Below are positions 4,001 to 57,391 of a DNA stretch of 64,000 nucleotides, in pieces. The notes below the pieces were generated by a model that was given only the letters and a program-made list of their open reading frames with translations, ran no database searches and had not been told where the DNA came from. Where the stretch lies: assembly GCF_002113885.1 (NCBI RefSeq), contig NW_018405306.1, positions 550,891 through 614,890 of the forward strand, in the 5' to 3' direction. Both the position numbers and the translations under genes were made by a program. This DNA is from Mizuhopecten yessoensis. Taxonomy: Eukaryota. Every line of letters begins with the position of its first letter. The first letter of the stretch is position 1.

Positions 4001-7000
4001 ACCGTATAGACACTCAATGTCCACCGTATTGCCAATCCATGTCCACCGTATTGTCAATCAATGTCCACCGTATAGACAATCTATGTCCACCGTATTGCCA
4101 ATAAATGTCCACCGTATAGCCAATTAATGTCCACCGTATAGCCAATCTATGCCCACCGTATAGCCAATCTATGCCCATCGTATAGCCAGTCCATGTTTAC
4201 CGTATAGCAAATCAATGTCCACCGTATAGGCGATCCATGTCCACCGTATAGCCTATTCAGGTCCACCTTATAGCCACTCCATGTCTACCTTATAGCCAAT
4301 GCATGTCCACTGTATAGCCAATCCATGTCTAACTTATAACCAATCCATGTCTACTGTATAGAAATCAATGTCCACCGTATAGGCGATCCATGTCCACCGT
4401 ATAGCCAGTCCATGTTTACCGTATAGCAAATTAATGTCGACCGTATAGCCAATCCATGTCTTCCGTATAACCAATCCATGTCCACCGTAGAGCCAATCCA
4501 TGTCCACCGTATAGTCAATCCATGTCCACCGTATAACAAATCCATGTCCACCGTATAGCTAATTCAGGTCCACCTTATAGCCACTCCATGGCTACCTTAT
4601 AGCCAATCCATGTCCACTGTATAGCCAATCCATGTCTAACTTATAACCAATCCATGTCTACCGTATAACCAATCCATCCTTGTCCACCATATAGCCAATC
4701 CATGTTTACCGTATAGCAAATCAATGTCCACCGTATAGCCAATCCCTGTCCACCGTATAGCCAATTCATGTCCCCCTTATAGCCAATCCATGCCCCCCGT
4801 ATAGCCAATCCATGTTTGCCGTATAACCAATCCATGTCCATCCATGCCCACCGTATAGCCCCTCCATGTTTACCGTATAACCAATCCATGTTTATCGTAT
4901 AACCAATCCATGTCCACAGCCAATCCATGTCCACCGTATTACAATGTCCACCGTATAGCCAATTAATGTCCGCCGTATAGCCAATCCGCCACTCCATGTC
5001 CACCGTATAGACAATCTATGTCCACCGTATTGCCAATAAATGTCCACCGTATAGCCAATCTATGCCCATCGTATAGCCAGTCCATGTTTACCGTATAGCA
5101 AATTAATGTCCACCGAATAGCCAATCCATGTCCACCATACAGCCAATCAATGTTTACCGTATAGCCAATCCATGATGTCCACCGTATAGCAAATCCATGT
5201 CTACCTTATAGCCACCCCAGGTCCACCGTATAGCCAATTCAGGTTCACCTTATAGCCAATCCATGCCCCCCGTATAGCCAATCCATGTCCCCCTTATAGC
5301 CACTCCAGGTCCCCCGTATAGACAATTCAGGTCCACCTTATAGCCTATCCATGCCCACCGTATAGCCAGTCCATGTCTACCGTATAGCCAATCCCTGTCC
5401 ACCGTATAGCCAATTCGGGTCCACCTTATAGCCAATCCCTGTCCACCGTATAGCCAATTCGGGTCCACCTTATAGCCAATCCCTGTCCACCATATAGCCA
5501 ATCCATTTCCGCCGTATTATCAATCCATGTCCACCACCATATAGCCAATCAATGTCTACCGTATTGCCAATCAATGTCCACCGTATTGCCAATTCATGTC
5601 CACCGTATAGCCAATACATGTCCACCGAATAACCAATCCATGTCAACCGTATAGTAAATCCATGTATACCGTATAGCCAATCCATGTCCACCATATAGGC
5701 AATCCATGTCCACCGTATAGTCAATCCATGTCTACCGTATAGCAAATCAATGTCCACCGTATAGACGATCCATGTCCACCGTATAGCCAACCCATGTCCA
5801 CCATATAGCCAATCAATGTTTACCGTATAGCAAATCAATGTCCACCGTATAGACAATCTATGTCCACCGTATTGCCAATAAATGTCCACCGTATAGCCAA
5901 TTAATGTCCACCGTATCACCAATCCATGTCCACCGTATGTATAGCCAATCCATATACACCGTCTAGCCAATCCATGTCCACCATACAGCCAATCAATGTT
6001 TACCGTATAGCAAATCAATGTCCACCGTATAGCCAATTAATGTCCGCCGTATAGCCAATCCGCCACTCCATGTCCACCGTATAGACACTCAATGTCCACC
6101 GTATTGCCAATTCATGTCCACCGTATAGCCAATACATGTCCACCGTATAGCCAATGCATGTCCACCGTATAGCAAATCCATGTCTACCTTATAGCCACCC
6201 CAGGTCCACCGTATAGCCAATTCATGTCCACCGTATAGCCAATACATGTCCACCTTATAGCCACTCCATGTCTACCTTATAGCCAATCCATGTCCACCAT
6301 ATAGCCAATCCATGTCCGCCGTATTATCAATCCATGTCCACCGTATAGCCAATCCATATACACCGTATAGCCAATCCATGTCCACCGTATATACACTCCA
6401 TGTCCACCGTATTGCCAATTAATGTCCACCGTATAGCCAATCCATGTCCACCGTATAACCAATCCATGTCCACCGTATAGCCAATTCATGTCCACCTTAT
6501 AACCAATCCATGTCTACCGTATAGCCAATCCATGTCCACCGTTTAGCCAATTCATGTCTACCTTATAGCCAATCCATGTCTACCTTATAGCCAATGCATG
6601 CCCACCGTATAGCCAATCCATGTCTACCGTATAGCCAATCCATGTCCAATGTATAGCCAATCCATGTCCCCCCGTATAACCAATCCATGTTCCCCCTTAT
6701 TACCAATCCATATCCACTCTACCGTATAGCCAATCCACGTTTACCGTATAGCCAATCCATTTCCACCGTTTAGCCAATTCATGTCTACCGTATAGCCAGT
6801 CTACTGTATAGAAATCAATGTCCACCGTATAACCAATTCATGTCCACCGTATTACCAATCCATTCCATGTCCACCTTATAGCCACTCCATGTCTACCTTA
6901 TAGCCAAGGCATGCCCACCGGATAGCCAATCCATGTCCACCATATAGCCAATCCATGTCTATCGTATAGCCAATCCATGTCAACCGTATAACCAATCCAT

Positions 7001-9980
7001 GTCAACCGTATAACCAATCCATGCCCACCGTATAACCAATCCATGCCCACCGTATAGCCAATACATGACCACCGTATAGCCAATCCACGTTTACCGTATA
7101 GCCAATCCATGGCTACCGTATAGCCAATCCACGTTTACCGTATAGCCAATCCATTGCCACCGTATAGCCAATCCATATACACCGTATAGCCAATCTATGC
7201 CCACAGTATAGCCAGTCCATGTTTACCGTATAGCCAATCCATTTCCACCGTTTAGCCAATTCATGTCTTCCTTATAGCCAATCCATGTCTGCCTTATAGC
7301 CAATGCATGCACACCGTATAGCCAATCCATTTCCACTGTATATCAACTCCTTGTCCACCGTATTGCCAATTAATGTCCTCCGTATAGCCAATCCATGTCA
7401 ACCGTATAACCAATCCATGCCCACCGTATTACCAATCCATGTGTCCGCCGTATTATCAATCCATGTCCACCGTATTTCCAATCCATGTCCACCGTAGAAC
7501 CAATCCATGTCCACCGCATAACCAATCCATGTCTACCGCATAGCCAATCCATGTCTACCGCATAGCCAATCCATGTCCACTGTATATCAACTCCTTGTCC
7601 ACCGTATTGCCAATCAATGTCTACCGTATTTCCAATCAATGTCCACCGTATGGCCAATCCATGTCCAACGTATAGCCAATCCTTGTCCACTATATTGCCA
7701 ATCAATGTCCACCGTATTGCCAATCCATGTCCACCGTGTAGCCAATCCATGTCTACCTTAAAGCCAATGCATGCCCACCGTATCGCCAATCCATGTCCAC
7801 CGTCTAGCCAATCCATGTCCACCTTATTACCAATCCATGTCCACCGTCTAGCCAATCCATGTCCACCATATAGCCAATCAATGTCTACCGTATTTCCAAT
7901 CAATGTCCACCGTATAGCCGATCCATGTCCACCGTATAGTCAATCCATGTCCGCCGTATTATCAATCCATGTCCACCGTATATACACTCCATGTCCACCG
8001 TATAGCCCATCCATGTCCACCGTATAGCCCATCCATGTCCACCGTATAGCCCATCCATGTCCACCGTATAGGCAATCCATGTCCACCGTATTCCCGATCC
8101 ATGTCCACCGTATTACAAATCCATGTCCACCGTATATACACTCCATGTCCACCGTATTGCCCATTAATGTCCACCGTATAGCCAAGCCAATTCAGGTCCA
8201 CCTTATAGCCACTCCATGTCTACCGTATAGCCATTCCTTGTCTACCATATTGCCAATCCATGTCCACCGTGTAGCCAATCCATGTCTACCTGATAGCCAA
8301 TGCATGCCCACCGTATCGCCAATCCATGTCCACCGTCTAGCCAATCCATGTCTACCGGATAGCCAATCCATGTCTACCTTACAGCCAATGCATGCCCACC
8401 GAATAGCCAATCCATGTCTACCGTCTAGCCAATCCATGTCCACCTTATAGCCAATCCATGTCCACCTTATTACCAATCCATGTCCACCCTATAGCCAATC
8501 CATGTCCCCCGTATTACCAATCCATATCCACCCGTATAGCCAATTCAGGTCCACCTTATAGCCACTCCATGTCCACCGTTTAGCCAATTCATGTCTACCT
8601 GATAGCCAATGCATGCCCACAGTATAGCCAATCCATGTCTGCCTTATAGCCAATGCATGCCACCGTATAGCCAATCCACGTTTACCGTATAGCCAATCCA
8701 TGTTTACCTTATAGCCAATGCATGCTCACCGTATAGCCAATCCATTGCCACCGTATAGCCAATCCATTTCTACCGAATAACCAATCCATGTCCACCCCAC
8801 TCCATGTCTACCTTATAGCCAATCCATGCCTACCTTATAGCCAATGCATGCCACCGTATAGCCAATCCATTGCCACCGTATAGCCAATCCACGTTTACCG
8901 TATAGCCAATCCATTTCCACTGTATATCAACTCCTTGTCCACCGTATTGCCAATCAAGGTCCACCGTATAGCCAATCTATGCCCACCGTATAGCCAGTCC
9001 ATGTTTACCGTATAGCCAATTAATGTCCACCGTATAGCCAAATCCATGCCCACCGTATAGCCAGTCCATGTTTACCGTATAGCCAATCCATTTCTACCGA
9101 ATAACCAATCCATGTCCACCTTATTACCAATCCATGTCCACCCTACCTTATAGCCAATCCATATCTACCTTATAGCCAATGCATTCCCACCGTATAGCCA
9201 ATCCCTTATAACCAATCCATGTTCCCCCTTATTACCAATCCATATCCACTCTACCGTATAGCCAATCCATTTCCACCGTTTAGCCAATTCATGTCTCCCT
9301 TATAGCCAATCCATGTCTATCTTATAGCCACTCCATGTCTACCGTATAACCAATCCATGTTCACCGTATTACCAATCAATATCCACCGTATTACCGAGCC
9401 ATGTCCACCGTATTACCACTTATAACCAATCCATGTCTACCTTAAAGCCAATGCATGCCCACCGTCTAGCCAATCCATGTCCACCATATAGCCAATCCAT
9501 GTCCGCCGTATAACCAATCCATGTCCCCCGTATAGCCAATCCATGGACACTGTATAGCCAATCAATGTCTCCCGTATAGCCAATCCATGGACACTGTATA
9601 GCCAATCAATGTCTCCCGTATAGCCAATCCATGTTTATCGTATAGCCAATCCATGTCAACCGTATAACCAATCCATGTCCACCGTATTGCCAATCAATGT
9701 CCACCGTATAGCCAATCCATGGCCACTGTATAGCCAAGCAATGTCTACCGTATAGCCAATCCTTGTCTACCGTATAGCCAATCCATGGCCACTGTATAGC
9801 CAATCAATGTCTACCGTATAGCCAATCCATGGCCACGGTTTAACCAATCCATGGCCACTGTATAGCCAATCCATTTCTACCGTATTGCCAATCCATTCTC
9901 ACCGTATAGCCAATCCATGCTCACCGTATAGCCAATCCTTGACCATATTTTAGCCAATCCATACCCACTGTATAGCCAAT
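1096..9980. repeat. 22-bp minisatellite array, consensus GCCAATCCATGTCCACCGTATA, about 400 units
   Basis: Continuous tandem repeat read directly. Spurious ORFs repeat every 22 aa (MDWLYGGHGLAIRWTWIGYTVD = 3 x 22 nt). Confidence 0.98.
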
Positions 9981-10742: not shown

Positions 10743-10832
10743 TTAACCCATTCACCCCTGAAATTTCATAATGAACTATTCCAACCTTTGGATTGGAAGA
10801 GTTCAAATGTTTCTTCGGGGTGAACGAGTTAA
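10743..10832 (+). mobile_element. ~90-bp MITE bounded by TTAA (piggyBac-like non-autonomous element)
   Basis: TTAACCCATTCACCCCTGAA...TTCGGGGTGAACGAGTTAA terminal inverted repeats. Other copies at 32924, 33212, 62197 and a partial copy at ~30180. Confidence 0.8.
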
Positions 10833-11689
10833 TACATTCAGATCATAGAGTTCATATATCTACTACCATCAGATGAGGAATTATATTTCACAGATATGTA
10901 CATATGAACATTGCTAGACGAATGATATATTGTTGTGTCCCACCACAACCATTGAGACAATTAAGCACTGTTAACTTAAGTTTAAAAATGGGATTGACGA
11001 TCTTTTATGAGAGACAAATGCATCATATGATTGAGTGTATTTCGATGCAAATGGAAAAAAAACCTAAACAAACAATGTCAAAATATTAGATTATACAATA
11101 ATTTCTGTTGACAGAAAAGAAACCATTATATGTACCTGTTAAAATGACGATAGCATAAACAGTTTGGGTAATTTGTATGTATTGTATTGAGCGAATGCAA
11201 TATCCGTTCATTCAAAATCCTCTAACATTATTCTCCTTTTATAGAATTCACCTGGTTATGGTGAGTGTGCTGTCTAATGAACAAAGCAGGTAATTTGATA
11301 GATATATTTTAAATGTCCTATCCCCTGTGTGTTTCATAACGTGCCTTGTTTGTCCATGTATCGATGAACAGATAAAACTAAAAGGTTAATTGTACATTTG
11401 TCATAAACGAGTATGACGCGCGCTCTGTTTTATCTATTTAATAATGATTGGGATCTGAATTTTCGTAATTTTAGACAATTACTAAAACAAATGATGTAAC
11501 CTTACCAATACCCTGAAACAGAAGTATACAAGACATATATAGATTGGTTAGTTATTGCAATCTACACTTTCGTAATTTTAGACAATTACTACAACTCTCG
11601 ACGTAACATCGACAATTAATCTCGCGGAGACGTTTCTAGAACCTAATAGGAAAGATATTATACAAAGTACAAAGTGTATATAAAGATAT

Positions 11690-14600
11690 TATACAGAGTT
11701 TAAATTCAGTTAGCATACAGTATGTTTAAGCAGGTAATAAACAGAGTAGATATTATGTTTATACAGGTAGAATACAGAGTGTATACCGGTAGAAATGGTG
11801 ATTTTTTTTTATTATAACGAGCATAATACCGGTAGGATACAGAGTATATATAAGTAGTAAACAGGCCAAATAAAGAGATTATACAGTGTTTATACAGGTA
11901 GAATACAGAATGTATACAGCAAAAATAAAAATATTAAACAGAGGATAAAAACAGGTAGAATACAGATTATATACAGGTAGTAAACAAGGCAAATAAAGAT
12001 ATTATAACGACCATTACACCGGTAGGATACAGAGTATATATAAGTAGTAAACAGGCCAAATAAAGATAGTATACAGTGTTTATTCAGGTAGAATACAGTG
12101 TTTATACAGGTAGCATACATTGTTAATACAGGTAGAGTACAGTGTTTATTCAGGTAGAATACAGTGTATATACAGGTAGAATACAGTGCTTATACAGGTA
12201 GAATACAGTCTTTATACAGGTAGAATTCAGTGTTAATACAGGTAGAATACAGTGTTATACAGGTAGAATACAGGGTTAATACAGGTAGAATACAGTGTTC
12301 ATACAGGTAGAATACATTGTTTATACAGGTAGAATATGGAGTTTATACAGGTAGAATACAGGGTTGGTACAGGTAGAATACAGTGTATATACAGGTAGAA
12401 TACAGTCTTTATACAGGTAGAATACACTGTTAATACAGGTAGAATACAGTGCTTATACAGGTAGAATACAGTGTTACTACAGGTAGAATACAGTGTATAT
12501 ACAGGTAGAATACAGTGCTTATACAGGTAGAATACAGCGTTTATACCGGTAGATTACAGTGTTAATACAGGTATAATCCAGAGTATATACAGGTAGTAAA
12601 CAGGACAAATTATACAGGTAGAATACAGCGTTTTTACAGGTAGATTACAGTGTTTATACAGGGAAAATACAGTGTATATACAGGTAGAATACAGTCTTTA
12701 TACAGGTAGAATACACTGTTAATACAGGTAGAATACAGTGTTACTACAGGTAGAATACAGTGTTAACAAAGATAGTATACAGTGTTTATACAGGTAGAAA
12801 CCAGTGTTTATCCAGGTAGAATACAGTGTTTGTACAGGTAGAATACAGTGTTCATACAGGTAGAATACATTGTTAATACAGGTAGAGTACAGTGTTTATT
12901 CAGGTAGAATACAGTGTTTATAGAGGTAGAATACAGTGTTTATACTGGTAGAATACAGTGTTAATTGAGGTAGAATACAGTGTTTATTCAGGTATAATAC
13001 AGTGTTTATACATGTAGAATACAGTGTTAATTGAGGTAGAATACAGTGTTTATTCAGGTATAATACAGTGTTTATACAGGTGGAATACATTGTTAATACA
13101 GGTAGCATACAGTGTTTATACAGGTGGAATACATTGTTAATACAGGTAGAGTACAGTGTTTATTCAGGTATAATACAGTGTTTATAAAGGTAGAATACAG
13201 TGTTAACAAAGATAGTATACAGTGTTTATACAGGTGGAATACATTGTTAATACAGGTAGCATACAGTGTTTATACAGGTGGAATACATTGTTAATACAGG
13301 TAGCATACAGTGTTTATACAGGTGGAATACATTGTTAATACAGGTAGAATGCAGTGTTTATACAGGTAGACTACAGTGTTTATACAGGTATAATACATTT
13401 TTTATACAGGTAGAATACACTGTTAATACAGGTAGAATACAGTGTGTATACAGGTAGAATACAGTGTATATACAGGTAGAATACAGTCTTTATACAGGTA
13501 GAATTCAGTGTTAATACAGGTAGAATACAATGTTTATACAGGTAGAATGCAGTGTTTATACAGGTAGAACAGGTAGTAAACAAGGCAAATAAAGATATTA
13601 TAACGAACATTACACCGGTAGGATACGGAGTATATGTAAGTAGTAAACAGGCCAAATCAAGATAGTATACAGTGTTTATACAGGTGGAATACATTGTTAA
13701 TACAGGTAGCATACAGTGTTTATACAGGTGGAATACATTGTTAATACAGGTAGCATACAGTGTTTATACAGGTGGAATACATTGTTAATACAGGTAGAGT
13801 ACAGTGTTTATTCAGGTAGAATACAGTGTTTGTACAGGTAGAATACAGTGTTGATACAGGTAGAATACAGTGGTTATACAGGTAGAATACAGAATGTATA
13901 CAGCAAAAATAAAAATATTAAACAGAGGATAAAAACAAGTAGAATACAGATTATATACAGGTAGTAACCAAGGCAAATAAAGATATTATAACGACCATTA
14001 CAACGGTAGGATACAGAGTATATATAAGTAGTAAACAGGCCAAATCAAGATAGTATACAGTGTTTATTCAGGTAGAATACAGTGTTTGTACAGGTAGAAT
14101 ACAGTGTGTATACAGGTAGAATACAGTTTTAATACAGGTATAATACAGAGTATTTACAGGTAGTAAACAGGACAAATTATACAGGTAGAATACAGCGTTT
14201 TTACAGGTAGATTACAGTGTTAATACAGGTAGAATACAATGTTTATACAGGTAGAATGCAGTGTTTATACAGGTAGATTACAGTGTTTATACAGGGAGAA
14301 TACAGTGTTTATACAGGGAAAAAACAGTTTTTATACAGGTAGAATACAGGGTTAATACAGGTAGAATACAATGTTTATACAGGTAGAATGCAGTGTTTAT
14401 ACAGGTAGAACACAGTGTTTATACAGGTAGGATATAGTGTTTTTACACGTAGAATATAGTGTTTATGCAGGTAGAATACAGTGTTTATACCGGCATAATA
14501 CAGTGTTTATACAGGTACAATACAGTGTTTATACAGGGAAAATACAGTGTATATACAGGTAGAATACAGTGGTTATACAGGTAGAATACAGAGTTTATAC

Positions 14601-14840
14601 AGGTAGAATACATCGTTAATACAGGTAGAATACAATGTTAATAAAGATAGTATACAGTGTTTATACAGGTATCATACAGTGTTTATACAGGTGGAATACA
14701 TTGTTAATACAGGTAGAATACAGTGTTTATACAGGTAGAATACAGCGTTTATACAGGTAGATTACAGTGTTAATACAGGTATAATACAGAGTATATACAG
14801 GTAGTAAACAGGACAAATAAAGAAATTATACAGAGTTTAT
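11690..14840. repeat. Second 22-bp minisatellite, consensus TACAGGTAGAATACAGTGTTTA
   Basis: Tandem units read directly; degenerate at both edges; 22-aa periodic spurious ORFs. Confidence 0.97.
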
Positions 14841-17720: not shown

Positions 17721-20322
17721 TCCAAGTAAATGTCCATTAACATTGGTTAATAGGTTTGTCCAATAACATTGGTTAATAGGTTTGTCGATTTACATTCGAC
17801 ATCTATCACCGAAGTCTTGATTTTCCATCTATGATTGCAGTAAGGTCAGTAAAGATCGCCATGCTCGGCTGACGTTTAAAAACATTTATTTCAAAACTCA
17901 AGAGGATATATGTGATCTATGTGTTCAATACATGTTTTGCTATGTAAAGTCAACACATTGTCAATATACCTGTAAGTAAAATTGAATGACTTCAATATAT
18001 TGAAGGTTTTTGTTTGTATTCCTGATAAGCTCTTTTTTAAATTCAGGCAAATATCAACCAAAAACTAGCCGACTAAGAGTAGGGCAGAATTTGACCCCGA
18101 GTGTTAAGCTAATGATCTCCTAAAAATCTTCCCGTCGAACGCAATACAAATATTTAGAACCAAGATGTAATCATCTTCACGATTACAAATTTTAGCATAT
18201 TTTATCCAGACACGTGTTGTATTTTTCAAACAATAGTTAATAACTATAAAAGGTTTTAACGCCGTTCACTTTAGTTGGGAAAGATATTCCCAAATCAAGA
18301 GAAGAAAGGCGTTCCTTTTAATTTGGTATGAGTTTATTTGTGTCTAGTGTGGAAAAATTAAATATTCTAATAGACAAAACGTTTTTAAGAATAGATTTAT
18401 CAAAACATCTCTGTAAATTCCACTTCTGTGACAGTATTCATAAACCATTCTCGTGCCCAAAGATGAATTCTGTGCTCCAACAACTTTTTTATAACTTGCT
18501 TCAATCATGTGACATGGTCAAAAACTGCATTTGGCTTTTAAGTTTCACCGAAAGTCTTTCAAATATTTAATAAAAAGTGATTTTTTGATAATCTATCTGC
18601 ATTACCTGAACAAGACAAAAAGCCTTTTATGAAACAGTTAGATGAAACGGACCTACGAGCAAAGCAAACAGTGTCACGATAATGCGTTACTCTAGATTAA
18701 TGGTACTTAAACGATAAGTTTAGAAAACCTGCTGAGCTACTATTGGAGCAAGCAATGGATTCTGCTAATAACAGACTGCATACAACATTGAATTCGTGCA
18801 ATATTACTTTGCGTTTCGTTAGGATATTAATATTGGTACATTTTAAAATTTGCAGCAAAGTAGGTGAATGTATAGGTTCATCATGTCTGCTTTTTTAGTT
18901 AAAACTGGCTAGAATAATAAAATCGTTAAATTGCAATTAAGCGAGATCTCAGTCGAGGGCTAAGATTCGTTAACATAATGCTAACGAGACGTAAGCACTT
19001 CAGACAGGGATTTTCCATGTGATACCAGTGCTAGGTTTTTCTATCTTGTCCAATCTGTCTGACACCTTTACGCGACATTTTGCGGAATTTTCACAAAGCT
19101 ATGTGTTCATTTACGCAGTAAACAAAGTTATACACTCGTTCTTTTTTCAATTATGTTTTCTTGTAATATGTGTTATATTATTTAGATGTTTCAAATTCGT
19201 AATGTTTTAAGGAAAATATAATCTACATTGTTATTATGTTTTCTCCCTTTTAAAGACGGTCTACGCAGAAACATTAAAGCATAGCTTTAGAATTTTAGAG
19301 GTACGTTTTATTTAAGGCCCCACACGGGGTACTTGTTAGACTATAGCGAAATTGAGTTGTTTTTTAAACTAAATGGTGCTAAAGAAAGTAATCTGAGCAT
19401 ATTAACCCGACTACTTGTGTAGGACTCTCGTTCAGTTTCATTGTTTTTGGCCGAGCAACAGTATTCAAATATTTAACCGGTATTCTTTGACTTTTTTCCG
19501 GACTAGATCGTAAAACAACGCCTGAAACTAAAACGTCTTAATGCATAGTTAAATTCGCGTTTGAAACTTTCAGCAAACGATGGGAAAATAACACCAACGC
19601 GAAAATTTGCCGGTATAAAGTATAGAACATTAAAAGTAAAAAATGCCTTGATAGTTTTTTCAAACAGGATATGTGGTGTTTCCAAACAAGGATCAACTGA
19701 CTGAATGTTTTATTTGCCGAAACAACCATATCCGTGTCAAGAAAATCATTGATTTAATTTATGCATGGTTTTCATTTCGGACTTCAAGTTGCAGATTTAT
19801 TTTTTTGAAAATTTTGGACTCTTTTAACTAAATCTACTTAGAAACCATTCTAATCTAGCATGCATTCCCTTTGTTAGGCGTAGTCTTCCACAGTGAACGT
19901 CCTGAAATACCCAGCCAACTGATGGTAGGGTTCTCTTGATAATTCAAATCATTCATGGAAATCAATTCTAGCTTTACATAATTGATAGTATTTAGATACC
20001 ACAAGTTCATGGTAGCCTTGACCCAGTTTGATAGATTAGCAAAATGCTGAAGGAGTCATTGTAGGGTTATATTTGTTCAGCTTTTGTAGCGTTGATTGTA
20101 GTTAAAGTTTGTAAGCCATAGGTTTAGAACGAATGTACAAATTATAAGAGTATTCCAATATTGAAAGTACGGCTGTATTTTAGCTTAATTTGACTCATGG
20201 TGTAGAAGATAACTGATGTTAATGATATCTAAGCCCTTGTTGGCAAATTCGATAGTCTTCAAATACCGATTTACTGGAGAGCTGTGACTATCCGTAGAAA
20301 CAGTCTTAAAAGCCTTCTATTA

Positions 20323-20419
20323 TAGCATGACTTTCACTGTTGACTATATTCAGAAACGCTGGTATTTTATGATGCGTGGAAACTTGCGTTAAGTGCTAAA
20401 TGCAGCATGTCGGAGAGAC
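20323..20419 (+). repeat. Left arm of 97-bp inverted repeat flanking the Kv exon
   Basis: Reverse complement of 24052-24148 with 6 mismatches by manual alignment. Confidence 0.92.
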
Positions 20420-21012
20420 ACCATGCATTTAATAATTATATTATAGCTAATTGTCACAAAGAACAATTGAAGCAGGACTCTATTGTAAGGGTATTAATAC
20501 AGAAACGGGAAACAACTATTATGTATTGTTAACATGATAACGCTGTTTATGCCTCCGATTACGTCTCATTTCAGGAGTGAACAAAGACATTGTAAGACTA
20601 TATCCCGGATTTGACAAATTTAAAGATTAGTACAATTGTACTACAGATTTTATTGAAAACAAGATGTTGTCAATGACTGTACTATATCGATCATTATCCT
20701 CTATTTCTGCAAAAAATACTAGCTTAGAATTGTTTCATGGAATATGGCAAAGATGATTTACCCATTTTAGTATCAAGAGAAGATATTAACATTTAAAATG
20801 GCCAACAATGATCCATCTTTTAACAGTGTGAATAAACTGTCAACTTTTCATTACAACACGTCCTTTTTGGAAGGCATGGCGGGTAATTTAATTGGAACAA
20901 CAGCAATCGTGACATAGCCATGTTCAACTTATGGTGGTTTGGGCAATGTTCGTTAACGAGGACACAAAGGAAAACTACCTTTTAAACGTGTGTAAATATC
21001 AATTATACTTAC

Positions 21013-21504
21013 CTTTGCAATTTGTCGGGACGATGGTTCCTCCAGGATGCTCCACACTCCTGCCTGGATGGCTTCCCAGTCGTGTCCTTGTCGTTGACGT
21101 TCCAAAAAAGCTTTCTCGTTTTTCCGGTTTGATTGATCAGTGTCCAGCATGGTCAACATTTTCTGGTCATCGAAGAAACCAACAAATTTACTGTAGCAAC
21201 AATTGGACATCTTCTTTGCATCTATTCCCCAGAAAAACAATTCTTCTTTAAACTCCATTGGACATATCGATCCCGGCATATGCAACTCTCTATCTTGAAA
21301 GTACCCCAACACAACCGAAAAACATATAGGATGTCTTTCAAAGAAGTATTCGTTAGGTAGCTTTGCATACAACTTGGTGGCTTCCTCTGATCCATGTTTT
21401 TCTCGTAAGGTACTTTCGATGCATAACCACGTGGCCCCTGATATTTCGAACCTCGTACCGCTTACATTGACAATTACATTGACATTGCAATCAACATCCA
21501 TCAT
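21013..21504 (-). CDS. First coding exon of a voltage-gated K+ channel alpha subunit (non-Shaker, Shaw/Kv3-like); T1/BTB domain plus pre-S1 helix
   Basis: VIVNVSGTRFE...YFFERHPICF..VLGYF...LHMPGSICPMEFKEELFFWGI...NCC...VWSILEEPSS..IAK. Exact HX5CX20CC zinc motif of Kv2/3/4 T1 domains. ATG at 21504 with an upstream in-frame TGA. Phase-0 donor AAG|GTAAGT at 21013/21012; 492 nt = 164 codons. Confidence 0.9.
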
Positions 21505-22289
21505 GTTCAACAAGTGTTCCGCCTTTGTTCAAAGTCTATGAAGATCTAAAGTTCTGAAGATAATTGCGCAATACTCCGACAAAATTGTCAAACCCGATTT
21601 ATTGGTCAATACGTATTAAATTATTGCTTTAAGTATTTTATTCCCGAAAACTCGATAAAAAACGTCAAATTTGATTCTCAAGATCAATGTATAATTTCAA
21701 TAATATTTCCTTATAAAACTGGCAAACCAACTTGTCCTTGTAATAATCGTCAACCGATATTAGTTAACCGTTGCCTGTCCTTGCACAAGTTGGAATTAAC
21801 TGAAACATTGTTCAAATACAAATCGTTACCAAGACATCTGTTACAAATATGTCCAATTTCTTTTTAAGGCCAACAGTTTCTGTAAACCCTGTAGATGAAC
21901 CATGAATAATATAACAGGTTCTAGATGAGTAAGGAAAGTATAAAGCGTTCCACTGATCTAACATTGTCTGTGTTGTGATTGATCTTTGCTTGTCGAGACG
22001 CCCTGTTTAGATAAGCTTGCTTGCTCTAGTTCATCAGAGGTGGTTAAGACACTATTATTCGACCAGACAACAGTTAAAAATAAATCAATATTCCTTCACA
22101 ACCTGATGACGATCACTACACTTGATAAAACAAACATGCACGATAGCATACCTGGGTATATACTACTATATAGATGGTCATTTTAAATTCTTCCCTATGG
22201 AGGTATAGTGTAGTTATTCCCCTGGTCACACAGGTCGAGAGGTGAAATCACAATAGTCTACTAAAGCGGCTCAGCGATACAGCAACTTA

Positions 22290-23300
22290 CTTATCATACT
22301 GTCAAATACTTAAGTCCCAGGTTTACCATACTGATCAAATGACCAAGTCACTTGTCTACCATACTGGTCAAATGACTAAGTCACTTGTCTGCCATACTGG
22401 TCAAATGGTCAAACCTCTGGCCGTTCGTACTGGTAACGTGTTCAAGTCAAATTATTCAACACAAGTATCCCATAGTTTCAGTTACTGGTTAACCTTACTG
22501 ATCATGTGATCAAGTCGTTGGCTTTTCTTACTGGCAAGTGTTCAAGTCAAATTAGTCAACAAAACTGGCCCAGAGTTCAAGTCACTGGTTTACCGTACTT
22601 GTCATGTGATCAAGTCACTGGGCTTTCATACTTTTAAAATGGTCATGTCAAATTAATATAATATATACTGGTAAAGTTTTAAAGGTACCACATCTCTCTC
22701 ATTAGGCGATTGTTCAACTGACTGATCAATCTTACAGGTCAAGTGGTAAAGTTACTGGTCTACTAAACAGTTCAAGTGATGAAGACACCGAATCTCTATA
22801 CTGTTCCTACTTTGATTCGGTTTTGGATTAGGAAGTATATGGTCTAGCGTCCCAATAGCTTAGTTTATAAGGACGAACCTCCTATAGTGTAATGTATTGG
22901 TGTCGTGGGTGCAGGAAGCGGTAAATGAGTGTATTTGCGATAGCGCGGACCTGATACCGATTTTAGAGAGCTACGTTGTAAAAAAAACAACTCAGTGAAA
23001 TACTAGGCCAAGGTCACCAAGCACAGTTATCTGCCGGGTTACCAATGTTTGTGAGATCAAGTCCGTGGTCTACATCTACCATACTTGTCAATTATCCCTT
23101 ATGCAAGTCAGTTGTCTACCATACTGGTCAATTATCTATTATTCAAGTCAGTTGTCTACCATCCTGGTTTAGTGATCGTGTTACTATTTTACCAGATCAA
23201 GTCACTGGACTATTTGGCAAGTGGATCAAGTCAGTAGTCTAATTCTGCTGGTCATTTGATCAACGGCACTGGTTCACAATACTAGGCATGAACCATTCAT
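22290..23300. repeat. Degenerate 33-bp tandem repeat (CATACTGGTCAAATGACCAAGTCACTTGTCTAC), interrupted by a SINE remnant
   Basis: Clear units at 22328-22400; decayed units to ~22800 and again at 23050-23300. Confidence 0.75.
22855..23045 (-). mobile_element. Decayed SINE remnant (CORE-type bivalve SINE-like)
   Basis: GATAGCGCGGACCTGATACCGATTTTA...GTGAAATACT shares motifs with 54105-54415. Family name from recall only. Confidence 0.45.
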
Positions 23301-24051
23301 GAAATCCTTATAAAGTAATTAAGCCATTTTTCTACAATACTGCTAAAATTCTCTTTTTTAATTGGATGGAGACTTTACTTAAAACTATATACAGCATGGT
23401 GTAGACCTTTTTCATTAAAGACGCAGGATCAAGTGTAATATACAGTAGTTACAACCATTGAGAGTCGTATACATTTCTGTCCGTGATATTTTTGATGAAA
23501 AATAAGTTATTTCCTTAAGCAAACATTGCATTATAAAGCATCTTCAGCACACAAAGGAAACACCTGTCTACATATTCCGAAAAAAATGCAACTAGCAATG
23601 ATTATATTGGAATTGGATGCGGTTTAAACAGGTATGTTACGGATAATGACATTTCTTGAGGGTAGGTTTTCTTTGACAATTAAAGCACATATCAGCCTTC
23701 GCTAGAGCTTCATGGAATACGAAATAAAGCTGGTTTAACATGGTACATATAACAATCGATAATGTATTGTATGATTATGTGTAAATACATCAAAGCAAAG
23801 CAAACCGGAAACTAGTTTTAGACCAAGGCCAGGTCATGTTTCATTCACGATCAGAAGATGCAGCGATTTGATCCAGGGTCATTCTTTGTCATTCTTTGCT
23901 GGTCATCCCAGTTTTACTGCAACAGAAAAGATAACACCCTTCTTGCCCTGCTATGTATGGATTGGCAGGTTAACTGACTACTGACAGCCCCGGACGATTC
24001 TGATTGTCAGAACAGCGCCAGTTGTTAATACTAAGAGTAAATGGCATTTTC

Positions 24052-24148
24052 GTCTCTTTGACATGCTGCATTTAGCACTTAACGCAAGTTTCCATGCATC
24101 TTAAAATGCCAGCGTTTCTGAATATTGTCAACAGTGAAAGTCATGCTA
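24052..24148 (-). repeat. Right arm of 97-bp inverted repeat flanking the Kv exon
   Basis: Reverse complement of 20323-20419. Confidence 0.92.
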
Positions 24149-25497
24149 CAGTAGCCGCTAATGGTACTTTTTAAGGTTTTAATGCTACATGTTACCAATT
24201 AAATAAGTTCACTCTCTCCTGCTTCTGTACCCTTTTAATTTCATGATCCATAACAGTAGATTTTTTTACTTTCTAGAGAAGATGGGACCTCAGGTCAGAA
24301 CAGCGATATCTGTAGACGTCGCCATCCCAAAAGTATACGTGAATATCAATAGGTTTACACTACATAACTTTACCTACTCCTCAGAACTGATTGAAGGAGG
24401 TATCCAGAGGTGTTACATGTATGTTCGTTCATGATGCCTCTGGTGAATTCGATTGCCCCTCATTTTTTAAAATTATAAACTCATCAAAAATTTCCAATGA
24501 ATGTGAACTAAATATCAACCTAGATAATGCATCTAAACAAGCTAGGTGTTTTTTAAGGGCAGCTTTTGAAAAAATAATTTACCTATAAAGCATATGTGTA
24601 TATCTTGGTGCAATGTCCCACTGACCTGTAGGTATTGTTGTCTATTTTAATTAGCGATTTTTACAACATGAGAAGACATCTCAACAGTTCTACCAAGCTA
24701 TTTTTCGAAGGATATTTGATTTCCCGAGTGTCCCATGCAGCAGGACAACATAAGATGATGAAAGCCTCATGTAGAATATTGGTGTAACAGAAGACCACAT
24801 CATTGGTCACCAGCCATGCATCTTCAAGCAGAGTTTTACATCAAGTCTCTAAAGATAGTCTGTGATATCAATCAAATGAGATAAAATGTCCTCTAAATAT
24901 AGCCTCAAGTGGACATCAGCCACTAACACATCGAACTGATTACATGTCAGGTAACAACAAAGCCCATAAAAAATGTGGAGAGGAAATATAACTTGTCTGC
25001 CTTAAGGGAGTCAGGGAGAGACAGTATATTAATTTGAATGTATTATAATCGATATGTCCTATTTTGGGTATCCCGCCGAAAAGCTTATTTTTTCTTGCAA
25101 AACTGATTTATTTCCATGGATTTCTCTAGCAGCTATTTATTTCCTATAATCAACTTGAATTGTCACCTCATAGCCTGATAAATAGGGGAAACATATTTCT
25201 TAGAAAGAGGAAATTTCATGATTAATTTACTATAAGCAAATCCATTAACACACTGCATCAATACTGGATGTACCTGGTATTATGATCGGGGCGGGCTTAT
25301 TTTCACATCAATCTATTTGATTGCATGACAAATACGTGTTGACATCTTTTCATGATGTACTGTTTTAATAGTGAATAGAAGACGAATAATAACGTCACGT
25401 TACCAAAACTTATATGACGTACATATATGCAGAACTTAGCGTGGTTTCATTCAGTCAATTAGATCAGTGCTAAACACACGATAAATTCCATCTAAAT

Positions 25498-28160
25498 GGA
25501 CAGCTAACATACAGAGGGTTAGTAGCTCGATAAGACTACATAGGAATAATTGGGTTGTTGGACAGCTAACATACAGAGGGTTAGTAGCTCGATAAGACTA
25601 CATAGGAATAATTGGGTTGTTGGACAGCTAACATACAGAGGGTTAGTAGCACGGTTAGACAACATTGGACGTATTGGGTTGTTGGGCAGGTAACATACAG
25701 AGGGTTAGTAGCTCGGTTAGACAACATTTGACTAATTGGGTTGTTGGACAGCTAACATACATTTGACTAATTGGGTTGCTGGGCAGCTACCATACAGAGG
25801 GTTAGTAGCTCGGTAAGACAACATAGGACTTATTGGGTTGTTGGGCAGCTAACATACAGAGGGTTAGTAGCTCGGTAAGACAACATAGGACTTATTGGGT
25901 TGTTGGACAGCTAACATACAGAGGGTTAGTAGCTCGGTTAGACAACATTAGACTAATTGGGTTGTTGGAGAGCTAACATAATTTGACTAATTGGGTTGCT
26001 GGGCAGCTAACATACAGAGGTTTAGTGGCTCGGTTAGACAGCATTTGACGTATTGGGTTGTTGGACAGCTAACAAACAGAGGTTTAGTGGCTCGGGTAGA
26101 CAACATTGGACGTATTGTGTTGTTGGACAGCTAACATACAGAGGGTTAGTAGCTCGGTTATACAACATTGGACTAATTGGGTTGTTGGACAGCTAACATA
26201 CAGAGGGTTAGGAGCTCGGGTAGACAACATTAGACTAATTGGGTTGTTGGAGAGCTAACATAATTTGACTAATTGGGTTGCTGGGCAGCTAACATACAGA
26301 GGGTTAGTAGCTCGGTAAGACAACATAGAACTTATTGGGGTGTTGGACAGCTAACATACAGAGGGTTAGTAGCTCGGTTAGACAACACTGGACTAATTGG
26401 GTTGTTGGACAGCTAACATACATTTGACTAATTGGGTTGCTGGGCAGCTAACATACAGAGGTTTAGTGGCTCGGTTAGACAACATTTGACGTATTGGGTT
26501 GTTGGACAGCTAACAAACAGAGGTTTAGTGGCTCGGTTAGACAACATTGGACGTATTGGGTTGCTGGGAAGCTAACATACAGAGGCTTAGTAGCTCGATT
26601 AGACAACATTGGACTAATTAGGTTGCTTGGCAGCTAACATACAGAGGGCCAGTAGCTCGGTTAGATAACATTTGACTAATTGGGTCGCCGGGCAGCTAAC
26701 ATACAGAGGGCCGGTAGCTCAGTAAGACAGCATTGGACTAATTGGGTTGTTGGACAGCTAACATACAGAGGGTTAGTAGTTCGGTTAGACAACATTGGAC
26801 TTATTGGGTTGCTGGGAGGCTAACATACAGAGGCTTAGTAGGTCGATTAGACAACATTGGACTAATTGGGTTGTTGGGCAGCTAACATACAGAGAGCCAG
26901 TAGCTCGGTTAGACAACATTTGACAAATTGGGTCGCCGTGCAGCTAACATACAGAGGGCCAGTAGCTCGGTAAGACAGCATTGGACTTATTGGGTTGCTG
27001 GGATGCTAACATACAGAGGCTTAGTAGCTCGGTTATACAACATTTGTCTAATTAGGTTGCTGGGCAGCTAATAATAGAGGGTTAGTGGCTCGGTTAGACA
27101 ACATTGGACGTATTGGGTTTGCTGGGCAGCTAACATACAGAGGATTAGTAGCTCGGTTAAGACAACATTGGACTAATTGGGTTGCTGGGCAGCTAACATA
27201 CAGAGGGTTAGTAGCTCGGTAAGACAACATTTGACTAATTGGGTCGCCGGGCAGCTAACATACAGACAGAGGACCAGTAGCTCGGCTAGAAAACATTGGA
27301 CTTATTTGGTTGCTGGGAGGCTAACATACAGAGGGTTAGTAGCTCGGTTAGACAACATTTGACTAATTGGGTTGTTGGGCAGCTAACATACAGAGAGCCA
27401 GTAGCTCGGTTAGAAAACATTGGACTAATTGGGTTGTTGGACAGCTAACATACATTTGACTTATTTTGGTCGCCGGGAAGCTAACATACAGACAGAGGAC
27501 CAGTAGCTCGGCTAGAAAATATTGGACTTATTTGGTTGCTGGGAGGCTAACATACAAAGGGTTAGTGGCTCGGTTAGACAACATTTGACTAATTAGGTTG
27601 CTTGGCAGCTAACATACAGAGGGCAAGTAGCTCGGTTTGACAACACTGGACTAATTGGTGCCTGGGCATTTTACATTCAGAGGGTTAGTAGCTCGGTTAG
27701 ACAACATTGGACTAATTAGGTTGCCGGGCAGCTAACATACAGAGGGTTAGTAGCTCGGTTAGACAACACTGGACTAATTGGGTGCCTGGACATCTTACAT
27801 TCAGAGGGTTAGTATCTCGGTTAGACAACATTGGACTAATTGGGTGCCTGGATATCTTACATTCGGAGGGTTAGTATCTCGGTTAGACAACATTGGACTA
27901 ATTGGGTTGCTGGGAGGCTAACATACAGAGGCTTAGTAGCTCGGTTAGACAGCATTTGACTAATTAGGTTGCTGGGCAGCTAACATACAGAGGGTTAGTA
28001 GCTCGGTTAGACAACACTGGACTAATTGGGTGCCTGGACATCTTACATTCAGAGGGTTAGTATCTCGGTTAGACAACATTGGACTAATTGGGTTGCTGGG
28101 AGGCTAACATACAGAGGCTTAGTAGCTCGGTTAGACAACATTTGACTAATTGGGTTAGTT
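25498..28160. repeat. 62-bp satellite (GGACAGCTAACATACAGAGGGTTAGTAGCTCGGTTAGACAACATTGGACTAATTGGGTTGTT)
   Basis: Period 62 (CAGCTAACAT at 25501 and 25563); about 43 unit lengths including recurrent internally deleted units; decays to ~28270. Confidence 0.97.
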
Positions 28161-30169: not shown

Positions 30170-31270
30170 TACATGAACTCTTCAACCAAAAAATTTCATG
30201 ATGAACTATTCCAACTTTTGAATTGTAAGAGTTTAATTGTGTCTTCAGGGCTGAACATTCCGATTAACATGTTAATGTTTCCATGTAAACCTTTACACTA
30301 ACAAACATATCCTTAATATGGAATATTTACCTTCGTTTGATGCTATTACAATCTTTAGCAATAAAACTTTTTATGTTTCACCAAAATCAGACGTCCATTA
30401 TAATAAGGAAATTATGCAATATATGGGACTTTATGGAAATAGACAATAAACCAAGAAACATCGATTAGGAGGATCTTATTGACAACACGTCATGTTAACC
30501 AACATGGCTACCTTGTCAAGTTACCGATGTAAAGCTTTAGTCTTAAATAATGGTACGGGAACCCTTAGATAGTCAAAGAAATACAATTTGCAAATACAAT
30601 GAATAGTCACTTAACTTACATAACAAAACAAATTCATTTTACTAAAGGTTGAACGGAAATATAACCATGATGAAATTAAATGATCAAGTTCATCCTACAG
30701 TTTGAAAATGGAATGTGACCAAATCTGTGATGTTGCAAGAAATTTGCTTTGTGGATTGTTAATCGAACTTGACATGCATACATCTACCTGAACACGCTAC
30801 AATAAAGATATTCGTCATGCACATCTGACAGTTTTTTCATTGTCCTTCAAAATATATCCCTCTGGCCCGGACAACTGGCACGTGGTGTGCAACAACGTGA
30901 CGATATGCCCGAATGAATGTTGAGAACAATGATTACAAATTTCAATTATCACTAATCAAAAATAAAACAAAACCTACAAGTGTCACGGCCTAGGTCCCAT
31001 ATGAGGGATGTGTGTATACATGAACATCATAATATCTTCAATCAAATATAGTAACAGTTGAAAGGCTGGCATCGTAAATTGACATGCCTTTTGTTAGTTT
31101 GAAATTGATTAAGAATAATGATAAAAGTTTCAAAATACATGTAAATGAAATTAATAATTCATAATGATATATCATTTGTCTGGTTGCTGTTGGCAAACCA
31201 ACCTGAATCGGTAGTTATAATCATTTATAGCGTGCACGTTAGCTGTAATGTGTTTAATAGTGTATATCGT
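30170..31270 (+). repeat. Copy A of an old ~1.1-kb direct duplication
   Basis: Collinear blocks shared with 32924-34290 (CTACAATAAAGA..TT.GTCATGCA; TATCCCTC.GGCCC.GACAAC; AAATAAAACAAAA.CCTACA; TAGTAACAGTTGAAAGGCT). Confidence 0.8.
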
Positions 31271-32923
31271 TTCACACAAATTCCCATTGGATGTGAAAAT
31301 TGATATCAACGCAGATAACGAAATCGGTGTTTTAATTTTTATCAGTTAAGGATAAATGTTCCACTGCAGGAAAAAGGAATCTAGAAAGTTCCACTGTGGT
31401 ACTCGTAAATACCGAATAATATATCCTGAAGTTTGCTTTGGATATACTTCCGTAGTCCAGGTAGCTACATAACGTCTAACAGGTTATTTAAGCAGGCTTA
31501 CATTTTCGTGACTTCTAACTTCGCGATCTAGGCATAATTATGAAGGATAAATTTTTGGGCGGTGTTTAAGCACAGAAACAGGACTCTCGGCATACAAAGT
31601 GTACACTAGTCAGATGAATAGGCTTTGTAACACTCTTGATTTTCAAATGTATATGAATCGGAACAACCACATACTCGCTATTTCCTGACGTCATTACGAT
31701 TATGGTGTTATTATCGTGGTTATTTTACATTTGTCGTAATATACTGCAGATTATATTTTCGCTATTACGTTATGGACCCTCGAAACCGCAAAAATGTCAC
31801 TCCTTCGGAAATATCCCGCATAACGGCATGTTACACCATAATCAGAAACTTATCAAAAATGAGGAAATTATACAATTAACAAGACGTTACAGAATTAAAC
31901 AATCTTATTGTCCGAGAAATGCGGATTTGGCAAACTACCAAGTCAGTTATTCATGAACATAAACCGGCTAACGCTTTACCTACAAAGTCGTAAAAACAAT
32001 GGAAGATAAGCATGATCCTGTCAAAATAACAAAATCAACTAAAAAATGAATGAATTCTTAATTCTCGGACAAGAAAACGCTCGATGACATTATTCCAAAC
32101 ACTTTCTGTAAAATGAGGGAAAAATATAATAATGTCAGTCTTTAACACACACGTTAACAAGACATCTGAAATGGTCAGTATATTCTGGGAATAGAGTTAA
32201 ATAAAGTACTTTGAGAGACAAACAGAACAAGACAGGATAACTAGGTACGGTAAGAGTGATATCAAGGTTACAATAGGCCAGTATTTTTTTGTCACATCTG
32301 TATCACAAATAGAAGAAACGGTCCTATATTAGTTGCCACAAAACTTAGACGGTAAAGTCTATTTTTCGAGGTCGTTAATTTTGCAGATTTGAACAAGAAG
32401 TCAATTTCGCGGGATCTGTAATTTTGCCAGACAAAACTCATAGTGCTACGATAAGGATTGATTAATTTGTTCTACTCAGCAGGATATAGTCAGGCGGCAT
32501 TTTTTTACCTCGAAAATCGAAATGATTAGAGCCCATGAAAAGACAAACTTGACAGTGTTACATATAATCACCATATAGTATAGCAATCATGACCATGCTA
32601 TTCCAAACTATGATAAACGTGATGACTTTTTATTTTGCAATCGTTGATTTTCCAATTGCATCAAAAGTAGTATTCCACCTTTCTCTGCCTTCCTGGAACA
32701 CCAGTGGGATTCTCCAATTTGTTTGCCTGCAGTGATAGAGAGACTTTAAGTATATAGATGTTCTGGATAGATACATTCTGTTCCCTCACAAACTGCTAGT
32801 CAATGGTGTTCAATCTGAGTACTTCCAAATAACACTGAAGTAGGCTGACAGTCTTCACTCTTACCTGATCATTTACCTGGAATATTATCGCCTACCAAGA
32901 TTTGCTCACCGTTTACTACAATG

Positions 32924-33014
32924 TTAACTCATTCACCCCTGAAATGTCATAATAAACTATTCCAACCTTTGAATCGGAAGAGTTCAAATGTGTCTTCAGG
33001 GGTGAATGAGTTAA
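32924..33014 (+). mobile_element. ~90-bp TTAA MITE, best preserved copy
   Basis: TTAACTCATTCACCCCTGAA...TTCAGGGGTGAATGAGTTAA perfect 20-bp inverted ends. Confidence 0.88.
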
Positions 33015-33211
33015 AGACATTTATTATTTAGCTGATAAGGATACAAAGACATCTGCAACATAAAATATTCCTTATCGTTCCATAAAATTGGTATACCATA
33101 CGTAGTAATTAGCTTCTCCGACTGTAAAACCTAGTGAAGGATCCCTGTAACACTGCATGCTAAACACTTGACAATTCCAATACAAGTTTTTGTACGCTGC
33201 ATAACCTTCCT

Positions 33212-33291
33212 TAACGCGTCGACCACATTTGATCTCTTCCAATTCAATGGTTGATATAGTTCATTATGAATTTCAGGGATGAATGAGTTAA
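33212..33291 (-). mobile_element. TTAA MITE, inverted and partly decayed copy
   Basis: CTCTTCCAATTCAATGGTTGATATAGTTCATTATGAATTTCAGGGATGAATGAGTTAA. Confidence 0.75.
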
Positions 33292-33342
33292 TATCGTTTT
33301 GGATATATGTGTACTACAACTGGGTCATTGTACATTGCACTA

Positions 33343-56862: not shown

Positions 56863-57391
56863 CTGTTTTAAAGGGGAAAAATACATGCAAAATATGTGGT
56901 GGTATATTGTTTATTTTACTATTACTGTAAAAAGAAATAGGATTTTTGGTATTGGATTCATCAGTTTGGTTATGAATAATACATGCTAGGTTTGTTTTGA
57001 ACACAAACAGCAATAGAAAACTTATTTTGCAAGCTTTCCAAAACGTCTGTTTCCTTCGTCAAGCAAAGAGTGCAAATGACTGTTGTCTCCAGTCTAAACC
57101 GATGAAAACAAGTCACTGAGCCACAATGTGCCTGGTCAGTTAATTCAGCTGTCACAAAATACAGGAACTTTGTTCCAATAAGGGGGCCAACATATCATGC
57201 TTGACTCTTCTTGAAGTTATTACAGGACAATGAAATTTTAGCATTTGTTTGCATTTCTACTGAACTGCAAGCGATATGGTTGGGCTTATAATCAGGCATG
57301 GGCTTATTAATACCAGGGTATATTTATAGCAACAATGTGATAATGTACCACTGGAGCAGACATGTATACCACAATATAATAGGCTTGATAC

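What the first reader, a model, noticed from the sequence alone, without database searches (positions are those of the whole stretch)
20323..24148. K+ channel T1 exon enclosed by a 97-bp inverted repeat: possible exon-carrying (Pack-type) element or back-splicing/editing structure
Seen: 20323-20419 and 24052-24148 are reverse complements with 6 mismatches. They bracket 3.8 kb holding the entire Kv first coding exon, its donor site and 2.5 kb of upstream sequence. The outer ends read TA-GCATGAC...GTCATGC-TA. I noticed no third copy of the arm in the window. Established: TIR transposons can carry host exons (Pack-MULE-type capture), and intronic inverted repeats drive circRNA formation and ADAR editing. 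Inference: either a mobile T1 cassette that could seed channel-family expansion, or a pre-mRNA duplex looping out this exon. A candidate acceptor TCTTCATAG lies about 30 nt upstream of the ATG.
Basis: partly seen in the sequence, partly recalled or inferred. Interest (0 to 1): 0.7.

Follow-up and report, generated by a model that had tools for sequence, protein, structure and literature searches.

The report
Scallop potassium channel, two assembly exons
The 97-base inverted repeat is real but is not the ends of a jumping gene: it likely arose when a short piece of nearby DNA was copied backwards into an older repeat, and the exon it brackets is one of two duplicated assembly-domain exons that likely take turns on one shared pore in a scallop potassium-channel gene, a layout that mussels appear to have evolved separately.

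Summary
The inverted repeat is confirmed (97 bp, 6 mismatches) and has only two copies in the genome. It is not a Pack-type element. An older dispersed repeat (19855-20625) runs through the left arm and resumes inside the supposed cassette, so the 3.8 kb block was neither inserted nor left inverted. No empty site appears in 7 of 7 genomic runs. The left arm is likely a 112-bp inverted templated copy of unique DNA 3.6 kb away; it has a 9-bp flanking duplication and short matches at both junctions. The enclosed exon matters more. This egl-36-like Kv gene has two T1 (assembly-domain) exons, 58% identical and 26 kb apart, and a single S1-S6 exon. Both T1 types occur in gene models of four scallop genera. 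Mytilus has its own, apparently independent pair, annotated as two isoforms with an identical core. Splicing of this distal exon to the core is inferred, not seen in RNA. Whether the arms pair in pre-mRNA and bias T1 choice is untested: the transcription start is unknown and no RNA covered the exon.

The parts
19855..20625 (+). Old dispersed repeat (about 65-75% identical to other copies), interrupted by the left arm
   Evidence: A profile of 16 other copies aligns as one hit over 19855-20625 (E 1e-61) with most of the arm in insert states. The piece after the arm scores alone at E 9.5e-12.
20323..20419 (+). Left arm, 97 bp (103 bp from 20317); likely the derived copy, inserted stretch 20327-20438
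   Evidence: no match of the arm to the repeat profile
20318..20326 (+). First copy of a 9-bp direct repeat at the outer junction of the left arm; its last 4 bases also begin the donor
   Evidence: the 9-mer occurs on this strand only here and at 20439
20420..20443 (+). Degenerate continuation of the arm, resembling 24026-24051 reversed
   Evidence: Gapped alignment; 100 of 5000 random 25-mers score as well
20439..20447 (+). Second copy of the 9-bp direct repeat; the old repeat resumes here
   Evidence: Chance: 40 of 5000 shuffles and 8 of 1429 positions in 15-25 kb; 231 of 3000 positions over 15-60 kb
21013..21504 (-). Distal T1 exon of an egl-36-like (Shaw-like) Kv gene, 164 codons, phase-0 donor at 21012. 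Its partner T1 exon (G000:C1979:545732-546217) and the single S1-S6 exon (C1979:529256-530173) lie about 5 and 21 kb beyond the window's low end
21535..21562 (-). Candidate splice acceptors 31 and 49 nt upstream of the first ATG; untested
   Evidence: motif scan only
24052..24148 (-). Right arm (to 24154); likely the template, in single-copy DNA
   Evidence: 23700-24700 matches only itself and the left arm in G000

Best explanation
The inverted repeat is a two-copy local duplication whose left arm interrupts an older repeat and was likely copied backwards from unique DNA 3.6 kb away during break repair, and the exon it brackets is one of two ancient duplicated T1 exons that are likely spliced alternatively onto one shared pore exon. 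Shown: two arm copies; the old repeat runs through the left arm; two T1 exons and one S1-S6 exon; both T1 types in other scallops' gene models. Inferred: a template switch primed on short matches at both junctions, leaving a 9-bp duplication; use of the distal exon in mRNA; the bracketing of the exon is probably incidental. Because T1 sets which subunits a Kv protein assembles with, the two isoforms would be one pore with two different assembly faces.
For: Arm copies: 2 in G000; the collapsed 35-nt core is at about twice flank depth in 4 of 4 runs. Old repeat: it gains 40 bits when continued by the DNA just inside the left arm (211.8), against 171-172 for the flank beyond the right arm, the reversed inner side of the right arm, or 5 of 5 shuffles. 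4 of 16 copies (L006, L008, L019, L079) carry both pieces in order. Junctions: 9-bp direct repeat and short matches. Gene: 2 T1 exons and 1 core in 194 kb. GenBank model P0001 joins the distal T1 and RefSeq model P0004 the proximal T1 to the same core. Between the two exons pS is 0.81 (saturated) and pN 0.25. Distal-type T1 occurs in Ylistrum (76%), Argopecten (62%) and, as pieces, in the Pecten model; clade 100/99. Mytilus edulis isoforms X1 and X2 differ at 81 positions, all in residues 2-156. Orthology of the mussel and scallop pairs is rejected in 4 of 4 groupings, p-AU at most 5e-4. 13% of the 194 kb lies between other inverted pairs under 10 kb apart, so bracketing alone is not rare.
Against: No empty site was seen, so the insertion is read from a 65-75% repeat, not from an allele. 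The window copy also lacks part of the repeat at this spot. The profile was built from copies found by likeness to the window, and 5 of 16 anchors were set by hand. Evidence for the 9-bp duplication is modest (p 0.006-0.08, depending on the null). The last 24 nt are much less alike than the 97-bp core, which also fits an older, longer repeat homogenised by gene conversion. No RNA evidence for distal-T1-to-core splicing was obtained here. RefSeq models of the distal exon in Ylistrum and Argopecten are T1-only. The Pecten model drops about 65 residues of it, which may mean damage or a modelling artefact. One run carries a non-synonymous change in the exon.
Confidence: 0.68

Rival explanations
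1. RNA loop-out switch: whatever their origin, both arms lie in one pre-mRNA begun above 24154, pair, and hide the distal T1 exon so that the proximal one is chosen.
For: Predicted duplex of -157.5 kcal/mol, second strongest of 12 nearby pairs scored. Both T1 exons have candidate acceptors. The distal one has no TATA-like motif in 3 kb upstream; the proximal has 7. A possibly-RNA contig of run X16 covers 24052-24458. Spacing lies within the 5-kb windows where inverted Alu pairs are enriched around skipped exons (PMC13019027, passages).
Against: Transcription start unknown. All 6 mismatches are non-pairing on the gene's strand (4 would be G-U on the other strand; read), so there is no sign of selection for pairing. 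Other scallops' RefSeq models also lack a distal-plus-core isoform, so its rarity needs no repeat. X16 is only guessed to be RNA and holds 0.05 of the words.
Confidence: 0.15
2. An older, longer inverted repeat kept alike by gene conversion, possibly with occasional flipping of the cassette by crossover in the arms.
For: Sharp fall from 94% in the core to roughly 65% in the 24-nt extension. A crossover inside the identical 35-nt core would be invisible in these contigs.
Against: The old repeat is collinear across the left arm, so the reference is in the ancestral orientation. The Pecten model uses the distal exon upstream on the same strand. Arm-specific letters stay with their own flanks in 4 of 4 runs, and no recombinant joint was listed in 3 more.
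Confidence: 0.1
3. Two insertions of a rare short mobile element (a local hop), the left one with a 9-bp target duplication.
For: The 9-bp direct repeat around the left insert resembles a target duplication.
Against: No third copy. No matching duplication around the right arm (alignment). No Rfam match. The genome search may skip very common words, but read depth shows two copies.
Confidence: 0.05
4. Pack-type TIR transposon carrying the T1 exon.
For: Long, near-identical inverted ends around an exon.
Against: The interrupted repeat resumes inside, not beyond the right arm. The unit is single-copy. No empty site in 7 of 7 runs. The exon is an old tandem duplicate shared by four genera, while the arms are 94% alike. 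The proximal T1 exon and the other T1 loci fetched have no arm.
Confidence: 0.02

Closest known systems
Microhomology-mediated templated insertions (MMB-TI / template switching; PMC8421209, passages)
   Same: An inverted copy of local DNA with short matches at the junctions, fixed in the germline.
   Different: That paper's search takes templates within 100 bp; here the template is 3.6 kb away, and the event is inferred from an old repeat, not from an empty allele.
Variable first exons spliced to constant exons (UGT1, GCNT2, clustered protocadherins; PMC3325998, PMC1885805, start of abstracts)
   Same: Tandem duplicated N-terminal-domain exons feeding one constant region.
   Different: Only two variable exons; the variable domain is the Kv T1 assembly domain; separate promoters are not shown; apparently arose twice in bivalves.
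Shaker-family alternative splicing (Drosophila Shaker; PMC9989356, passages)
   Same: N-terminal isoforms of one Kv gene.
   Different: In Shaker the variable part is, from recall, the inactivation tip ahead of a constant T1; here the whole T1 is exchanged.
Inverted-repeat loop-out exon skipping (TBXT AluY/AluSx1, PMC10901737 listing and start of abstract; PMC13019027 passages)
   Same: A newer repeat copy forms an inverted pair around an exon within 5 kb.
   Different: The arms are unique DNA, not a high-copy SINE; no skipping or co-transcription shown.
Pack-MULE and other TIR elements with captured exons (recalled)
   Same: Inverted ends around an exon; a 9-bp duplication is nearby.
   Different: The 9-bp duplication flanks one arm, not the 3.8 kb; no family, no empty site, no donor gene elsewhere.

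Membership tests
Pack-type TIR element | TIRs belong to a multi-copy family | tested here: not met
   2 copies in G000; two-copy depth in 4 of 4 runs
Pack-type TIR element | Target-site duplication around the whole unit | tested here: not met
   TA is inside both arms; outer flanks share no direct repeat
Pack-type TIR element | Flanks join up as an empty site | tested here: not met
   The old repeat continues inside the unit; no skip joint in 7 runs
Pack-type TIR element | Cargo is a near-identical copy of a donor gene elsewhere | tested here: not met
   Closest paralogous exon is 58% identical with saturated synonymous sites
Templated insertion | Insert copies local DNA and interrupts pre-existing sequence | tested here: met
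Templated insertion | Microhomology at junctions | tested here: inconclusive
   4-nt and 5-nt matches plus a 9-bp duplication; p 0.006-0.08
Templated insertion | Pre-insertion allele or outgroup without the insert | not testable with these tools
   No relative genomes held; metagenome scans empty
circRNA / loop-out / ADAR duplex | Both arms in one transcript | tested here: inconclusive
   Only one possibly-RNA run, covering the right arm alone
circRNA / loop-out / ADAR duplex | Back-splice, skipping or A-to-G reads | not testable with these tools
   No raw RNA reads offered
Shaker-family Kv subunit (Shaw/egl-36-like by source names) | T1 with HX5CX20CC zinc motif (motif recalled), S4, TTVGYG filter | tested here: met
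   Motif in 9 of 9 T1s checked, both scallop types included; BTB_2
Regulatory (silent) Kv subunit | Atypical S6 gate relative to PVPVIV | tested here: met
   Gate reads IIPIFV in 7 of 7 full-length proteins; signature from PMC6279357, passages
Regulatory (silent) Kv subunit | No current as homotetramer, T1 self-incompatible | not testable with these tools
   Needs expression in oocytes
Variable-first-exon gene | Tandem paralogous N-terminal exons, one constant region, same donor phase | tested here: met
Variable-first-exon gene | Each variable exon spliced to the constant exon in mRNA | tested here: inconclusive
   Gene models only: P0001 and P0004 in the scallop, isoforms X1/X2 in Mytilus edulis
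Variable-first-exon gene | Own promoter for each variable exon | not testable with these tools
   Motif scan only

The most novel reading that the evidence does not exclude
A bivalve regulatory Kv subunit carries two interchangeable T1 assembly domains on one pore, evolved separately in scallops and mussels, so exon choice re-addresses the same pore to different partner channels. In this scallop a chance inverted copy has become an RNA loop-out switch between the two. The two-T1 part alone is about 0.6 likely; the full version with the switch is scored here.
Probability: 0.1. Interest if true: 0.8.

Novelty: new variant of a known kind. Interest (0 to 1): 0.5.

Why it matters
The repeat itself is probably an ordinary repair scar. 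The gene is not ordinary. T1 decides which Kv subunits co-assemble (PMC6279357), so a gene that swaps the whole T1 on an identical pore is a natural chimera experiment on assembly specificity. Finding the layout twice in the same bivalve gene suggests selection for it. Six literature searches (listings only) showed no description. Gene predictors mis-handle the locus: two annotations of this species each keep one exon, and the Pecten model fuses both.

Tried and rejected
No RNA holder listed; X16 is a guess at RNA and did not cover the exon, which is no evidence on expression. The 'opposite strands' joint in X10 is the intact 3708-nt interior (20382-24089) whose far end lands on the left arm; it is not an inversion. 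Rfam: 0 matches at E up to 1 in 19500-25000. Two metagenome scans for the exon's neighbourhood in other species found nothing. A second two-T1 locus on C76672 was rejected: the extra T1 is a 463-bp 100% copy beside a gap. The third 19-mer hit on C5548 does not extend. The sigma-70 promoter scan does not apply to an animal. Per-copy deletion scoring was weak: the best deletion beat the shuffled control clearly in L008 and L021, by 2-6 points in most of the others and not at all in 3 of 13; the profile test replaced it. Earlier findings: none near or in relatives. No structure or complex job was sent: T1 tetramers would pass by likeness to solved structures.

Full report
OBSERVATION. The two arms are reverse complements with 6 mismatches in 97, extendable to 103 nt at 92%. 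The exon between them is 21504..21013 on the minus strand, 164 codons, a BTB_2/T1 domain. It is 100% identical to the N-terminus of P0001, which its source names an egl-36-like Kv protein of Mizuhopecten yessoensis. The outer TA belongs to both arms and is not a demonstrated target duplication.

COPY NUMBER. The arm has 2 matches among 2 candidates in the 988-Mb genome. The 4.9-kb region gave 35 matches: itself, the two arm-to-arm hits, and 32 hits to three short repeat patches outside the arms. The 1 kb around the right arm matches only itself and the left arm. A 19-mer with up to 1 mismatch gave the two arms and one hit that does not extend. The tool warns that very common words are skipped, so I checked depth. 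In 4 of 4 runs the identical 35-nt core is one contig at about twice flank depth, and only the two known contexts appear as loose ends. Of 15 runs holding most of the stretch I laid 7, from 5 studies; one of them (X3) is marked as a possible source. All show the left arm joined to both of its flanks, and none lists a joint that skips the arm or the cassette (table 8 was cut). Contigs drop rare alleles, and a crossover inside the core would not be seen.

ORIGIN OF THE REPEAT. An old dispersed repeat lies on both sides of the left arm. A profile from 16 other copies, window excluded, aligns over 19855-20625 as one hit with most of the arm in insert states; removing 20327-20438 raises the score from 199 to 213 bits. 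Four of the 16 copies carry both pieces in order. I then scored three histories. Continuing the upstream half with the DNA just inside the left arm gives 211.8 bits. Continuing with the flank beyond the right arm (insertion model) gives 171.8, and with the reversed inner side of the right arm (inversion model) 171.3, the same as the upstream half alone or 5 shuffles. So the 3.8 kb is neither an insertion nor an inverted block, and the left arm is the newcomer. A 9-bp direct repeat brackets it (20318-20326, 20439-20447). Chance for such a match is 40 of 5000 shuffles and 8 of 1429 nearby positions, but 231 of 3000 positions over the wider window. The donor shares 4 exact bases with the entry side and 5 with the exit side, and a degenerate 24-nt extension is reached by 100 of 5000 random 25-mers. 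This is the pattern of a microhomology-primed inverted templated insertion (PMC8421209, passages; its search covers templates within 100 bp, here 3.6 kb). The mechanism is inferred. The poorer extension also fits an older repeat trimmed to a 97-bp core by conversion. The arms differ by 6%, about ten times the roughly 0.5% seen between run X15 and the reference.

THE GENE. The exon's protein finds 35 places among 41 candidates; the best after itself is 26 kb downstream on the same strand, 58% identical. In 194 kb there are two T1 exons and one S1-S6 exon. The GenBank model P0001 joins the distal exon to the core; the RefSeq model P0004 joins the proximal one. Both end in a phase-0 donor at the same residue. 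Synonymous sites between them are saturated (pS 0.81) and pN is 0.25. The Pecten model is stitched from distal-type pieces, then proximal T1, then core. In a 30-row tree the distal type is one clade (100/99) and the proximal type another (92/94); in a 15-row tree the proximal clade is unresolved. The duplication therefore predates these four genera and is far older than the arms' 94% likeness implies, which again excludes capture by a young element.

CONVERGENCE. Mytilus edulis RefSeq isoforms X1 and X2 differ at 81 positions, all in residues 2-156, and share the last 303 residues; both T1 types also occur in M. coruscus models. The mussel pair groups together (98/92; 99/97), and all 4 pairings of a mussel type with a scallop type are rejected (p-AU 5.5e-5 to 4.6e-4; Pecten pieces, redundant Mytilus rows and distant paralogs left out). 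Conversion within each lineage could mimic this. I saw no RNA for any of these isoforms; they are gene models.

HOW IT LIKELY WORKS. Each T1 exon has its own ATG and splices to the shared core. Joining distal to proximal through the acceptor 40 nt before the proximal ATG would be out of frame and stop early (read), so use would be either-or. T1 mediates subfamily-specific assembly, and 42 of 43 regulatory subunits have unusual S6 gates (PMC6279357, passages). The gate here reads IIPIFV in place of PVPVIV, so the protein may be a regulatory subunit whose two isoforms join different partners; this is inference. An alternative is that the distal exon yields a T1-only product or is decaying; one run has an E87K change.

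DOES THE REPEAT ACT ON THE EXON? If a transcript starts above 24154 the arms would form a duplex of about -157 kcal/mol around the distal exon, the geometry of Alu loop-out skipping (PMC13019027, passages). For: candidate acceptors at both exons, no TATA-like motif upstream of the distal one, and a possibly-RNA contig on 24052-24458. Against: 13 inverted pairs under 10 kb apart occur in the 194 kb and the others bracket 13% of it; none of the 6 mismatches can pair on the sense strand; other scallops' models lack the distal isoform as well. This remains open.

NOVELTY. The repeat is a member of a known kind of repair scar. The gene is a new variant of the variable-exon/constant-exon design, with the Kv assembly domain as the variable part. 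Six searches (listings and starts of abstracts only) showed no description; subscription journals and supplements were not covered. Interest 0.5.

Noticed in passing
window 24052-24458: The only unique-sequence contig of possibly-RNA run X16 in 19000-25500 (407 nt, depth 4.3) ends exactly at the inner end of the right arm; unexplained.
   Followed up: partly
window 1015-9980 and 11660-14840: A 9-kb 22-bp satellite array and a second 3-kb tandem array lie between the distal and proximal T1 exons.
   Followed up: no
G000, many contigs: 35 T1-like places and tandem clusters (C5239, C1525, C1230, C5521) show a large family of mostly two-exon Kv genes in this genome.
   Followed up: partly
G000:C1979:529256-530173: S6 gate IIPIFV instead of PVPVIV, conserved in scallop, mussel and oyster orthologs: candidate regulatory subunit.
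   Followed up: partly
P0005 (Pecten maximus model): The 519-aa model is a chimera of both T1 exons with internal cuts; likely a mis-annotation.
   Followed up: partly
G000:C76672:296929-297391: A 463-bp exact copy of part of a T1 exon beside an assembly gap; artefact.
   Followed up: yes
window 22300-22760 and 23030-23270: Degenerate tandem-like units of about 33 bp inside the cassette, split by a stretch holding a high-copy 40-bp motif (22934-22974).
   Followed up: no
window 57307-57579 (-): Exon matching Integrator subunit 11 C-terminal domain; the next gene upstream on the same strand.
   Followed up: no
window 45388-47273 (-): Broken reverse-transcriptase-like frames, likely a LINE remnant.
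   Followed up: no
window 57918-57975; 32918-33297: A perfect 25-bp inverted repeat with an 8-nt loop; a MITE-like 380-bp element with relatives at 10743-10836, 30181-30256 and 62193-62283.
   Followed up: no
window 21246: Run X15 has C>T, changing codon 87 of the distal exon from Glu to Lys.
   Followed up: partly
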